Assembly: GCF_044647545.1 (NCBI RefSeq)
Contig: NZ_CP172818.1
From: Escherichia coli
GTDB lineage: Bacteria; Pseudomonadota; Gammaproteobacteria; Enterobacterales; Enterobacteriaceae
DNA: 64,000 nt
Strand: one strand, 5' to 3'
This document shows, piece after piece, positions 28,845 through 32,482 of this stretch (position 1 is its first letter; each line of letters starts with the position of its first letter). The notes beneath the pieces were generated by a model. That model had not been told where the DNA came from and did no database searches. It worked only from the letters and a program-made list of their open reading frames with translations. The translations under genes and the position numbers were made by a program.

Positions 28845-29708
<864 letters not shown>

Positions 29709-29731
29709 TCTTTTTTGCCTGAAAACTAAAG

Positions 29732-29759
29732 CCTTAGCGTTCTGCGTTAAGGTTTTTTT
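29732..29759 (+). terminator. Rho-independent terminator of kdsA
   Basis: Hairpin CCTTAGCG-TTCTG-CGTTAAGG (one G-U pair) followed by TTTTTTT. Confidence 0.7.
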
Positions 29760-29774
29760 CATGGGTGCCGGATA

Positions 29775-29813
29775 CAAAAAAGGCCGCAGGCTGTTACCCC
29801 TGCGGCCGTTTTC
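29775..29813 (-). terminator. Bidirectional-looking terminator hairpin at the 3' end of ldr copy 1 (part of the LDR unit)
   Basis: GGCCGCAGG-CTGTTACC-CCTGCGGCC flanked by an A-run and a T-run; repeated with one mismatch at about 30520-30557. Confidence 0.65.
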
Positions 29814-29856
29814 GGGCGCATATTGCCATCACGGCAGCCTGACGCCCGTTTTCACC

Positions 29857-29964
29857 TTACTTCCGGTTACGCCACCAGCTGACAATCACTGCGGTAATAA
29901 TTCCCGCCAGGATCGGTGCTGCCAGGTCGTGCCAGAAAGTCATGGCAAACTGCGCGAGCGTCAT
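29857..29964 (-). CDS. ldr: Type I toxin Ldr, 35 aa (MTLAQFAMTFWHDLAAPILAGIITAVIVSWWRNRK)
   Basis: Reverse-complemented and translated by hand; single hydrophobic helix with WWRNRK tail; the track's plus-strand ORF here is spurious. Confidence 0.85.
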   Translation of the reverse strand: MTLAQFAMTFWHDLAAPILAGIITAVIVSWWRNRK

Positions 29965-30015
29965 ATAGCCGCCTTGTTGTAATGACAACATTTTGCGGCT
30001 ATTCTTGAATTGTTC

Positions 30016-30081
30016 TGGTTCAAGATTAGCCCCCGTTCTGTTGTCAGGTTGTACCTCTCAACGTGCGGGGGGGTTCTCTTT
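30016..30081 (+). ncRNA. rdl: Candidate Rdl antisense RNA (antitoxin) opposite the ldr 5' leader, copy 1
   Basis: Position within the LDR unit plus terminator-like CCCCCG ... CGGGGGGG with U-rich tail; ends are approximate. Confidence 0.45.
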
Positions 30082-30289
30082 CCAGCAACCAATGCCACCA
30101 GGGATAAAGCCCCCGCAACATTGCGCCTCACCGGATAACGCCGGCTTGGTGTGGATACTACGTCTCAATTCATCTTCACTTCATCCCTGAAATGTTTGCA
30201 ATGAAGAGTGCATTCCGGTTTTTCAACAGCTGTTATTTCTTTTTACCCTTCCTTTCCCCCCCCTTTTTCCCACCTTTATGCCCTAAACA

Positions 30290-30450
30290 AATACTCATAC
30301 CCTTCAATCAAATTACCCTTATTTCCTCTCATCGGGTTCTCTCACAACAATCAGGATAAAGCCCCCCATTCCCTCCGGATACCCGGCTGGATATCGTCTC
30401 AATTCATCTCACTCATCCCAAATGTTCAAAATCATCCTCAACCCAGTCGT
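30290..30450. repeat. Degenerate partial LDR copy inside the spacer between the two intact units
   Basis: By-eye alignment to the distal part of the LDR unit (shared GGATAAAGCCCCC and CGTCTCAATTCATCT blocks); heavily substituted. Confidence 0.5.
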
Positions 30451-30599
30451 TTCATGAGTGCTCTGGATGATGCTTCCAGCTCGGGTTGCCAATATTTACT
30501 TGCAGAAGAGATAAAGACAAAAAGGGCCGCAGGCTGTTACCCCTACGGCCGGTTTCGGGCGCATATTGCCATCACGGCAGCCTGACGCCCGTTTTCACC

Positions 30600-30707
30600 T
30601 TACTTCCGGTTACGCCACCAGCTGACAATCACTGCGGTAATAATCCCCGCCAGGATCGGTGCCGCCAGGTCGTGCCAGAAAATCATGGCAAACTGCGCGA
30701 GCGTCAT
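30600..30707 (-). CDS. ldr: Type I toxin Ldr, 35 aa (MTLAQFAMIFWHDLAAPILAGIITAVIVSWWRNRK)
   Basis: Same frame and length as copy 1; one amino-acid difference (Ile9 instead of Thr9). Confidence 0.85.
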   Translation of the reverse strand: MTLAQFAMIFWHDLAAPILAGIITAVIVSWWRNRK

Positions 30708-30758
30708 ATAGCCGCCTTGTTGTAATGACAACATTTTGCGGCTATTCTTGAATTGTTG

Positions 30759-30825
30759 ATGGTTCAAGATTAGCCCCCGTTCTGTTGTCAGGTTTTACCT
30801 CTCAACGTGCGGGGGTTTTCTCTTT
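30759..30825 (+). ncRNA. rdl: Candidate Rdl antisense RNA, copy 2
   Basis: Same position in unit 2; terminator here is CGGGGG followed by UUUUCUCUUU; ends are approximate. Confidence 0.45.
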
Positions 30826-31112
30826 CCAGCAACCAATGCCACCAGGGATAAAGCCCCCGCAACATTGCGCCTCACCGGATAACGCCGGCTTGGTGTGGAT
30901 ATTACGTCTCAATTCATCTTCACTTCATCCCTGAAATGTTTGCAATAAAGAGTACATTCCGGCTTTTCAACAGCTGTTGCAGTGGTTTCGTGCAGGTTGT
31001 GGTACAGGCTCGCAATTCTGATTAACGACCTGTTCAGGTAGTATGAAGAAATACAATAAGCAGGAATTTATATTATCTCCCCCGATTTCTGTCATCAGAG
31101 GAGATATAACTG

Positions 31113-32213
31113 TCAGGCAAATATCGTCATCAAATAGGCGGCAAACAGTGCCAGATGCGCTGCGCCATTGAGCACGTTAGTTCGTCCGGTGGAGAAGGAG
31201 ATATGGCACAGTACTAAAGAGGCCACCATCACCACCATTTCTGGCGCACCAAGTGCAAACTGCAATTCGTTACCCGTCATAAAGGCAATTAGCGTGACGA
31301 CAGGTACGGTAAGCGAAATGGTTGCTAACACTGAACCAAAGAACAGATTCATCGCGCGCTGGACCTGGTTATTCAACACTGCTTTTAACGCACCTAAACC
31401 TTCCGGCGACAGAATCAACAGAGCCACCAGGAAGCCAGTAAAGGCGACAGGCGCATTCATGCTGTCGAGCAATGTCTCCAGCGGGCTGGCGTTCATTTTG
31501 GTGACTGCAATAACGGCAATCAGATGGATAATCAACCAGATAGCATGCCACAGGCTGCTATGGGCAGACGGTTTACCGTGGTGCGGGTCGTCATCATCAC
31601 TGTCATCTTCGTGCTCGTAGACAAACAAACTTTGATGCGTTTTGGTCTGGATCAGCAAAAATACGCCATACATTGCCGCAGAAATTAATGCTACCAGTAA
31701 CGCCTGACCGGTTGAAAAATTCGCCGCAGGCAGAGCCATTGGAAATACCAGTACGATTATCGCCAGGGGGAACAGCGCAATTAAATACTGCTTGATACCA
31801 AACAGATTCATATATTGGGTGGCAAACTTGCGTCCGCCCAACAATAATGAAAAGCCAACCAGCCCACCGGTAACAATCATAATGATTGAATAGAGCGTAT
31901 CACGCATTAGCGTTGGCGCGGCGTCGCCGGTTGCCATTAAAGCTGAAATCAAACTGACTTCAAGAATAACCACTGAAAGGCTAAGAATAAGCGAACCGTA
32001 AGGTTCTCCCAGGCGATGGGCTAATACGTCCGCATGACGGACAACACTAAAGGCGCTACTTAAAATACCAATAAGAGCAAGAAGATTGATGGCAATGACC
32101 ACTGGTAGTGTCTGGCTGCTTCCCCACAGGAACAGCACTACCAGCGCCAGAACCGGGAAAATAAGCGAAGTCTCCTTGTGGCGGGTTTTTACCGCCTCTT
32201 GAGCATTTGACAT
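31113..32213 (-). CDS. chaA: Ca2+/H+ (Na+/H+) antiporter, CaCA family
   Basis: ATG at 32213 (MSNAQEAVKTRHKE...) gives 366 aa; acidic DDSDDDD loop; longer track ORF rejected. Confidence 0.92.
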   Translation of the reverse strand: MSNAQEAVKTRHKETSLIFPVLALVVLFLWGSSQTLPVVIAINLLALIGILSSAFSVVRHADVLAHRLGEPYGSLILSLSVVILEVSLISALMATGDAAPTLMRDTLYSIIMIVTGGLVGFSLLLGGRKFATQYMNLFGIKQYLIALFPLAIIVLVFPMALPAANFSTGQALLVALISAAMYGVFLLIQTKTHQSLFVYEHEDDSDDDDPHHGKPSAHSSLWHAIWLIIHLIAVIAVTKMNASPLETLLDSMNAPVAFTGFLVALLILSPEGLGALKAVLNNQVQRAMNLFFGSVLATISLTVPVVTLIAFMTGNELQFALGAPEMVVMVASLVLCHISFSTGRTNVLNGAAHLALFAAYLMTIFA

Positions 32214-32482
32214 TATGGTTATCCCTTTGCAGATGAATTTATCGAAAATGTAAAAAATAGGTAGGAAAAATAACAGAAAGTGTCTGGATATCGGTAACAT
32301 TTTACGAATTTTTACCCCGCTGTCGATTTTTTACTCATCGGGCCATAAAAATAAGCAATGCGTTTAGACAATGTTTGTTTTAGCACTTCTTAAGAAGAGT
32401 CTGACATGAAAATTCTTATGTTTTGGCAAGAGTAGATGTTGTTGACCACACTTAATGTTCAACTTTGTAAAAGGAGTCAACG

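What the first reader, a model, noticed from the sequence alone, without database searches (positions are those of the whole stretch)
29775..30980. LDR type I toxin-antitoxin array: two intact ldr/rdl units with a different copy number and spacing than I remember for K-12
Two ~460-bp units (29778-30236 and 30520-30976) each carry a 35-codon minus-strand ldr toxin ORF, a terminator hairpin and a plus-strand terminator-like structure where the Rdl antisense RNA should lie. The ldr ORFs are 743 bp apart. From memory, E. coli K-12 has three tandem units of roughly 530 bp here, so this locus may be a structural variant.
Basis: partly seen in the sequence, partly recalled or inferred. Interest (0 to 1): 0.5.

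Follow-up and report, generated by a model that had tools for sequence, protein, structure and literature searches.

The report
Known ldr/rdl toxin repeats, garbled spacer
This is the well-known E. coli ldr/rdl toxin-antitoxin repeat locus between kdsA and chaA with two intact copies, which is a common arrangement, and its odd 743-bp spacing comes from a 208-bp stretch that looks like a sequencing or assembly error rather than biology.

Summary
Two 462-bp LDR units (97-98% identical) lie between kdsA and chaA. Each has a 35-codon minus-strand ldr ORF (Pfam Ldr_toxin, E=1.8e-25), a terminator after it, and a plus-strand Rdl RNA above Rfam's gathering score. The ORFs are 743 bp apart; K-12 has three units at a 535-bp period.

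The copy-number difference is ordinary. In a spread sample of 60 complete E. coli genomes, 57 could be scored. The kdsA-chaA interval was about 661 bp (1 unit) in 11, about 1196 bp (2 units) in 19 and about 1731 bp (3 units) in 25. Two more carry an IS200C. The nearest relatives (ST648-like, 99.96% identical) have two units 535 bp apart.

The window differs from them only by an exact 208-bp insertion (30236-30443). It is absent from 5,426 complete E. coli genomes; a 24-mer from it is absent from the genome-representative and metagenome collections.

The insert is a perfect subsequence of one LDR period, with zero substitutions. Only 13% of G's are retained against 46-57% of the other bases, and the loss worsens from right to left. 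Natural decay does not look like this. It is most likely a base-calling or consensus artefact, possibly hiding a real third unit.

Verdict: a known system, a common polymorphism, a spurious spacing. Low interest.

The parts
28854..29708 (+). kdsA (left flank of the locus)
   Evidence: 284-aa ORF. Annotated kdsA in relatives that are 100% identical here.
29774..30235 (.). LDR unit 1 (closest to K-12 LDR-A)
   Evidence: Direct repeat with unit 2. Aligns with the K-12 LDR-A/B/C units at a mean column identity of 98% and shares LDR-A's variant positions.
29782..29807 (-). Terminator hairpin of ldr mRNA, unit 1
   Evidence: 9-pair stem (8 G-C) followed by TTTTTTGTAT.
29857..29964 (-). ldr toxin ORF of unit 1, 35 aa: MTLAQFAMTFWHDLAAPILAGIITAVIVSWWRNRK
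   Evidence: Pfam Ldr_toxin PF13940, E=1.8e-25, model 1-35/35. 94% identical to each of K-12 LdrA, LdrB and LdrC. Annotated as an Ldr family toxin in IMT16316.
30012..30079 (+). rdl antisense RNA of unit 1
   Evidence: Rfam RF01813 rdlD, 73.4 bits against gathering 50, full model. Folds at -25.2 kcal/mol, z=-3.1. Lies antisense to the ldr 5' leader and does not overlap the ORF.
30236..30443 (.). 208-bp private insertion: a thinned (deletion-only, G-poor) copy of one LDR period; probable assembly or base-calling artefact
   Evidence: Exact gap against IMT16316, with 100% identical flanks. No complete E. coli genome of 5,426 covers it. A 24-mer from it is absent from GTDB species representatives and JGI metagenomes. 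It is an exact subsequence of spacer+unit: 208/208, against 190 +/- 2.4 in shuffles. It embeds in 484 nt, where shuffles need at least 738. G retention is 0.13 against 0.46-0.57 for the other bases. It has no significant fold on either strand.
30444..30516 (.). Normal inter-unit spacer (part of the 535-bp period)
   Evidence: Identical to the spacer between the two units of IMT16316.
30517..30978 (.). LDR unit 2 (K-12 LDR-B/C-like)
30525..30550 (-). Terminator hairpin of ldr mRNA, unit 2
   Evidence: 9-pair stem (7 G-C) followed by CTTTTTGTCT.
30600..30707 (-). ldr toxin ORF of unit 2, 35 aa: MTLAQFAMIFWHDLAAPILAGIITAVIVSWWRNRK
   Evidence: Differs from the unit-1 peptide at one residue and from K-12 LdrA/LdrC at one residue. 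Annotated as an Ldr family toxin (WP_000170956.1) in relatives.
30756..30821 (+). rdl antisense RNA of unit 2
   Evidence: Rfam RF01813, 83.6 bits, full model. Folds at -27.3 kcal/mol, z=-4.5.
31113..32213 (-). chaA (right flank of the locus)
   Evidence: ORF 31113-32300. The annotated chaA is 1101 nt in relatives that are identical here.

Best explanation
The region is the canonical chromosomal LDR locus of E. coli between kdsA and chaA. It holds two complete ldr/rdl type I toxin-antitoxin units. From the literature, each unit makes a stable minus-strand mRNA for a 35-aa membrane-active Ldr peptide, and a ~66-nt plus-strand Rdl RNA that pairs with the mRNA's 5' leader and blocks toxin synthesis. 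Two units is one of three common states of this locus (1, 2 or 3 units on a 535-bp lattice). By inference, these states arise by unequal recombination between the repeats. The off-lattice 743-bp spacing is not a biological feature. It comes from 208 bp (30236-30443) that are a thinned read-out of one LDR period (spacer plus unit). Bases, above all G, have been dropped without any substitution, and the loss worsens from right to left. That pattern points to an error of base calling or consensus building in a tandem repeat. Candidates are a poor read tail used to close the repeat, or a consensus over reads that disagree in copy number. The true locus of the strain is probably either two units at 535 bp, as in its closest relatives, or three units with the middle one garbled.
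For: Identity of the system: Rfam rdlD hits above gathering, Pfam Ldr_toxin E=1.8e-25, peptides 94-97% identical to K-12 LdrA/B/C, units aligning with K-12 LDR-A/B/C at a mean column identity of 98%, terminators, and the same kdsA/chaA flanks as K-12. Common polymorphism: intervals of 661, 1196 and 1731 bp in 11, 19 and 25 of 57 scorable sampled genomes, plus IS200C and IS150 variants. Relatives with 100% identical flanks have 1 or 2 units. Insert is private: the window is 99.96% identical to IMT16316 over 46 kb but carries an exact 208-bp insertion. No complete E. coli genome of 5,426 covers the insert, and alone it gives only E~1 matches to LDR itself. A 24-mer from it has no exact match in GTDB representatives or JGI metagenomes. 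Unnatural relation to LDR: it is an exact subsequence, 208/208, of the 535-nt period against 190 +/- 2.4 in shuffles. It embeds in 484 nt where shuffles need at least 738, and the right 120 nt embed in 184 nt where shuffles need 510 +/- 37. The retained fraction falls from 0.6-0.87 on the right to 0.25 on the left. Retention by base is G 0.13 against A 0.46, C 0.57 and T 0.52, p=2e-12. In simulation, 3 or more substitutions in the right 120 nt would leave the exact-subsequence property in under 3% of cases, so about 64 deleted bases stand against 0-2 substitutions. The window's other four indels against its nearest relative are all deletions in the window. The three that were tested are shared by no other genome.
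Against: I have no reads, quality values or source record, so the artefact is inferred from the sequence pattern alone. The rest of the window is of high quality (7 SNPs and 4 small indels in 46 kb), so the assembly is not generally poor. The insert's two ends fall exactly on the unit/spacer boundaries, which a real unequal-recombination product would also show. The mode of action of Ldr and Rdl is taken from the literature on K-12 (PMC4147584, PMC8309996). It was not tested here, and the Rdl mechanism itself is unsettled in those reviews.
Confidence: 0.86

Rival explanations
1. The 208 bp are genuine DNA: a decayed relic of a third (middle) LDR unit that lost about 60% of its bases through many small deletions. 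On this reading the strain carries a real, private structural variant of the locus.
For: The insert is clearly LDR-derived and co-linear with a unit. It sits exactly where a middle unit would sit. Three units are the commonest state in E. coli.
Against: A relic old enough to decay this far should carry substitutions, and should be present in relatives whose flanks are 100% identical. Instead it shows 0-2 substitutions against about 64 deleted bases in the informative part, a four-fold base-specific loss of G, and a directional gradient of loss. It is absent from 5,426 genomes, including 82 whose 3.8-kb kdsA-side flank is at least 99% identical. All sampled genomes sit on the 661+535n lattice or carry a recognisable IS.
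Confidence: 0.07
2. The insertion is a foreign or mobile element (a miniature IS, MITE or similar) that landed between the two units.
For: IS150 and IS200C insertions do occur in this interval in other strains.
Against: The insert has no similarity to anything in E. coli other than LDR itself. No inverted repeats lie at or around the insert ends. It has no significant fold. The only ORF that spans it (125 aa) is not on record in the protein collection. The whole insert is an exact subsequence of the LDR period.
Confidence: 0.01
3. This is a sub-variant of the artefact reading. The sequenced culture was a mixture of cells with two and three LDR units, from ongoing unequal recombination. Consensus polishing kept only part of the columns of the extra 535-bp period.
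For: A pure deletion channel with no substitutions is what a consensus gives when each inserted column is supported by only some of the reads (inference). Close relatives with identical flanks already differ in unit number, 1 against 2, so the locus changes quickly.
Against: Partial support should thin all four bases alike, whereas G is lost four times more often. The right-to-left gradient looks more like a decaying read than like a mixed pile-up. This cannot be separated from a bad read tail without the reads.
Confidence: 0.25

Closest known systems
E. coli K-12 LDR-A/B/C (ldrA-rdlA, ldrB-rdlB, ldrC-rdlC) between kdsA and chaA. Source: Kawano et al. 2002, Mol Microbiol 45:333, as cited in PMC4147584.
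   Same: Same chromosomal position and flanks. The units align at a mean column identity of 98%. The peptides are 94-97% identical. The arrangement is the same: minus-strand ldr ORF, terminator, and plus-strand Rdl antisense to the 5' leader.
   Different: Two units instead of three. The units are 743 bp apart instead of 535 bp because of the 208-bp thinned insert. The Rdl of unit 1 has GG instead of UU at the start of its U-tract.
Two-unit LDR locus of ST648-like E. coli (for example IMT16316, NZ_CP023815.1; strain B1, NZ_CP157955.1)
   Same: Identical sequence across both units, the spacer and the flanks. Both Ldr proteins are the same (WP_022645587.1-type and WP_000170956.1).
   Different: Only the 208-bp insertion at 30236-30443.
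hok/sok and Fst/RNAII type I toxin-antitoxin systems
   Same: All have a small hydrophobic toxin with a stable, structured mRNA and a cis-encoded antisense RNA antitoxin. Ldr and Fst are reported as one superfamily (PMC2887945). Rdl has been proposed to act like Sok through a leader ORF (PMC4147584).
   Different: These are different families by sequence. Rdl lies opposite the 5' end of the toxin gene, whereas the RNAs of Fst-like systems lie opposite the 3' end (PMC2887945).

Membership tests
Ldr/Rdl (LDR) type I toxin-antitoxin | 35-aa hydrophobic Ldr peptide with a charged C-terminus that matches the family profile | tested here: met
   Pfam PF13940 Ldr_toxin, E=1.8e-25, 1-35/35, for the unit-1 peptide. 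The unit-2 peptide differs by one residue. Both are 94-97% identical to K-12 LdrA/B/C. The NCBIfam HMM library gave no hit.
Ldr/Rdl (LDR) type I toxin-antitoxin | Cis-encoded Rdl antisense RNA on the opposite strand, over the ldr 5' leader and not the ORF | tested here: met
   Rfam RF01813 gives 73.4 and 83.6 bits (gathering 50), full length, on the plus strand at 30012-30079 and 30756-30821. These lie 48 nt upstream of the ldr start codons at 29964 and 30707. Both folds are stable, z=-3.1 and z=-4.5.
Ldr/Rdl (LDR) type I toxin-antitoxin | Intrinsic terminator closing the ldr mRNA | tested here: met
   G+C-rich 9-pair hairpins followed by T-runs at 29807-29782 and 30550-30525 on the minus strand.
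Ldr/Rdl (LDR) type I toxin-antitoxin | Recognisable sigma-70 promoters for ldr and rdl | tested here: inconclusive
   The consensus scan found no promoter-like site in 29700-31120. However, the upstream regions are nearly identical to those of the expressed K-12 units.
Ldr/Rdl (LDR) type I toxin-antitoxin | Ldr overproduction is toxic and Rdl represses it; both RNAs are transcribed | not testable with these tools
   Known for K-12 LdrD/RdlD and LdrA from the literature (PMC4147584, PMC8309996). No expression data exist for this strain.
Tandem LDR array at kdsA-chaA (K-12 type) | Units repeated head to tail at a 535-bp period, giving a kdsA-chaA interval of 661+535n bp | tested here: not met
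   K-12 has a 535-bp period. Sampled genomes give 661, 1196 or 1731 bp. The window gives a 743-bp spacing and a 1404-bp interval. The deviation equals the 208-bp insert judged artefactual.
Genuine degenerate LDR relic (pseudo-unit) | Divergence by substitutions as well as indels, and presence in related genomes | tested here: not met
   The insert is an exact subsequence of the LDR period with zero required substitutions. It is absent from all 5,426 complete E. coli genomes, and a 24-mer from it is absent from the two contig collections.

The most novel reading that the evidence does not exclude
The 208-bp G-depleted, substitution-free shadow of an LDR unit is real DNA in this strain. It would then have been made by an unusual templated process that skips bases. 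One example would be error-prone copying of the structured ldr/rdl region during repair or recombination between the tandem units. That would make the LDR array a site of a mutational mechanism not described so far.
Probability: 0.04. Interest if true: 0.55.

Novelty: already known. Interest (0 to 1): 0.1.

Why it matters
The biological weight is small. The ldr/rdl locus, its tandem nature and its lineage-specific duplications and losses are all documented. This window adds only one more two-unit example. The practical value is a warning. An apparent structural variant in a tandem toxin-antitoxin array can be produced by a garbled consensus. A simple test exposes this: is the extra DNA an exact subsequence of the neighbouring repeat, with base-specific loss? 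The rough census made here (1, 2 or 3 units in about 19%, 33% and 44% of the 57 scorable sampled complete genomes, always on a 535-bp lattice) is a useful baseline for anyone comparing this locus across strains.

Tried and rejected
(1) Direct megablast of the locus against E. coli genomes. The tool's joining of repeated pieces made the coverage figures unusable for counting units. I replaced it with a query of concatenated unique flanks.

(2) Looking for the insert elsewhere. Distant blastn with the insert plus its edges and with the insert alone found only weak matches to LDR itself. An exact 24-mer scan of GTDB species representatives and of JGI metagenomes found nothing. An exact look-up of the 125-aa ORF that spans the insert found nothing.

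(3) NCBIfam HMMs for the 35-aa peptides gave no hit. Pfam did give a hit.

(4) The sigma-70 consensus scan found no promoter, so I could not place the ldr and rdl promoters.

(5) Folding the better-preserved right 144 nt of the insert (30300-30443) on both strands gave no structure beyond shuffles. I therefore rejected the idea that it encodes a diverged Rdl or another RNA.

(6) I tested whether the 952-bp difference at 53963-54914 is a second thinned segment, of IS4. It is not. It has no DNA similarity to the IS4 of IMT16316 and normal base composition.

(7) The Kawano et al. 2002 DNA Research paper on LDR distribution is not held in the library.

(8) The left 88 nt of the insert alone have no statistical power. 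Random sequences of that composition are also near-subsequences of the parent. The claim therefore rests on the right 120 nt and on the whole-insert embedding length.

Full report
**What is there.** The window between kdsA (28854-29708, +) and chaA (31113-32213, -) holds two direct repeats of about 462 bp. They are 29774-30235 and 30517-30978, 97-98% identical, with start-to-start spacing 743-744 bp.

Each repeat carries the following features:
- a 35-codon minus-strand ORF, at 29857-29964 and 30600-30707;
- a G+C-rich hairpin with a T-run just downstream of that ORF on the minus strand;
- a plus-strand element matched full-length by Rfam's rdlD model, at 30012-30079 (73.4 bits) and 30756-30821 (83.6 bits), against a gathering score of 50.

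The unit-1 peptide matches Pfam Ldr_toxin over its whole length (E=1.8e-25). The two peptides are 94-97% identical to K-12 LdrA/B/C. The units align with K-12 LDR-A/B/C at a mean column identity of 98%. Unit 1 shares LDR-A's variant positions and unit 2 is B/C-like. Both Rdl sequences fold into the expected long hairpin, with z=-3.1 and z=-4.5.

**Comparison with K-12 and other strains.** K-12 MG1655 has ldrA/rdlA, ldrB/rdlB and ldrC/rdlC at a strict 535-bp period in the same interval.

To see how unusual two units are, I searched the 5,426 complete E. coli genomes with a query made only of the unique flanks (2.5 kb on each side). I then read the kdsA-chaA interval from the span of each hit, in a spread sample of 60 genomes. 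Among the 57 that could be scored:
- about 661 bp (one unit) in 11 genomes;
- about 1196 bp (two units) in 19 genomes;
- about 1731 bp (three units) in 25 genomes;
- about 1905 bp in 2 genomes, which carry an IS200C.

Annotated examples confirm the meaning of each class. Strain ST648 has one unit, IMT16316 and B1 have two units 535 bp apart, K-12 has three, and CFSAN061771 has two units with an IS150 between them. Copy number at this locus is therefore a common polymorphism on a 661+535n lattice. This fits the lineage-specific duplications and losses of ldr reported by Fozo et al. (PMC2887945).

**The odd spacing.** The window's interval is 1404 bp, which is off that lattice. The window is 99.96% identical to E. 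coli IMT16316 over positions 17293-64000, and 100% identical to a set of ST648-like genomes over the 3.8 kb on the kdsA side. Against IMT16316 the locus differs by one thing only: an exact 208-bp insertion at 30236-30443. It sits between the end of unit 1 and the normal 73-bp spacer.

I looked for this insertion elsewhere and did not find it:
- No complete E. coli genome covers it. Coverage of a 361-bp query across it never reached 80%, and the top-ranked hits cover 42%. The insert alone gives only E~1 matches to LDR units.
- A 24-mer from it has no exact match in one genome per species of GTDB or in the JGI metagenome contigs.
- The 125-aa ORF that spans it is not on record.

**What the insert is.** It is LDR-derived, but in a peculiar way. 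A local alignment to unit 1 shows almost only deletions. The whole 208 nt form an exact subsequence of the 535-nt period (spacer plus unit): the longest common subsequence is 208 of 208, against 190 +/- 2.4 (maximum 195) for shuffled inserts. Anchored at the unit's end, the insert embeds in the last 484 nt, whereas shuffles need at least 738 nt. The right-hand 120 nt embed in 184 nt, whereas shuffles need 510 +/- 37 nt (minimum 396).

Three further properties stand out:
- The fraction of parent bases retained falls from 0.6-0.87 at the right end to about 0.25 at the left end.
- Retention is strongly base-specific: G 0.13 against A 0.46, C 0.57 and T 0.52 (chi-square p=2e-12).
- In simulation, three or more substitutions in the right 120 nt would leave the exact-subsequence property in under 3% of cases. 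So about 64 deleted bases stand against 0-2 substitutions.

The better-preserved right 144 nt of the insert show no fold beyond shuffles on either strand. The repeat scan found no inverted repeats at or around its ends.

**Interpretation.** A natural relic of an LDR unit old enough to have lost more than half its bases would carry substitutions. It would also be shared by relatives whose flanks are identical. A recent duplication would be a clean copy. Neither fits.

A substitution-free, base-specific and directionally worsening loss of bases is what a failing read or a poorly supported consensus produces. Two routes are plausible (inference). One is a poor read tail used to bridge the tandem repeat. 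The other is consensus polishing over reads that disagree in repeat number. The ends fall on the unit/spacer boundaries, and the insert spans at least 484 of the 535 nt of a period. So the most economical readings are two. Either the strain has two units at 535 bp, like its closest relatives, plus spurious sequence, or it has three units with the middle one garbled. I cannot tell these apart without the reads.

One supporting detail concerns the other indels. The window has four more indels against IMT16316, and all are deletions in the window: 1 nt at about 39716, 2 nt at about 46948, 1 nt at about 47065 and 4 nt at about 59019. The three that I tested are shared by none of the 5,426 genomes. 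Two of them lie right after the two tandem tRNA-Tyr genes, another repeat. Against this, the window is otherwise clean, and private deletions can be real. I put the artefact reading at about 0.86 and a genuine insertion at about 0.07.

**How the real part works.** This account comes from the literature and was not tested here. Each unit gives a stable ldr mRNA with a long 5' leader that encodes the 35-aa Ldr peptide. Overproduced LdrD causes rapid growth arrest and nucleoid condensation, and LdrA causes a fast ATP drop. Both peptides are alpha-helical and membrane-associated (PMC8309996). Rdl, of about 60 nt, is transcribed from the opposite strand over the leader and counteracts toxicity. It has been proposed to block a leader ORF (ldrX) that is translationally coupled to ldr, as Sok does for mok/hok, but this is unproven (PMC4147584).

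The sequence shows the parts of this system: the ORF, the terminator, and Rdl placed 48 nt upstream of the start codon. Expression and toxicity in this strain are inferred from near-identity to K-12. The simple sigma-70 scan found no promoter, so the promoters are not located.

**Verdict.** This is a known system at its known place, with a common copy-number state. The only unique trait, the 743-bp spacing, is most likely not real. Interest is low.

Noticed in passing
window 46940-47070: Against the nearest relative, 2 nt (about 46948) and 1 nt (about 47065) are missing immediately after the CCA end of each of the two tandem tRNA-Tyr genes (46951-47032 and 47069-47150, minus strand). None of 5,426 complete E. 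coli genomes shares this state; the best identity is 99.0%, with a span of 304 against 301 bp.
   Followed up: partly
window 59015-59022: A private 4-nt deletion (AGTG in relatives) lies in non-coding or hypothetical-protein sequence on the opp operon side. No complete E. coli genome matches the 241-bp query at more than 98.4%. A further 1-nt deletion at about 39716, just after narK, was not checked for uniqueness.
   Followed up: partly
window 53963-54914: About 950 bp between tdk and adhE hold several short broken ORFs that look to me like pieces of an IS4-family transposase; I ran no homology search on them. IMT16316 has an intact 1.39-kb IS4 at the same place, with no DNA similarity to this stretch. 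Base composition is normal, so it is not a second thinned segment.
   Followed up: partly
window 17293 (boundary): The ST648-like relatives carry an integrase-headed island next to ychF, with an AAA ATPase, a DEAD/DEAH helicase and an IS1182. The window lacks it and continues into the usual ycgV-dhaR-treA region, which is 97.9% identical to other E. coli lineages.
   Followed up: no
window 30073-30074: The Rdl of unit 1 has GG where unit 2 and all three K-12 Rdl genes have TT, at the start of the terminator U-tract (GGGGGGGUUCUCU against GGGGGUUUUCUCU). This lowers the Rfam score (73 against 84 bits). The change is shared with IMT16316, so it is real. It could weaken Rdl-1 termination.
   Followed up: partly
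window 29965-29991 and 30708-30767: In both units the ldr reading frame stays open upstream of the annotated ATG. An in-frame ATG in unit 1 gives 44 aa (MLSLQQGGY + Ldr), and an in-frame TTG in unit 2 gives 55 aa. I did not examine whether these relate to the proposed leader ORF ldrX.
   Followed up: no
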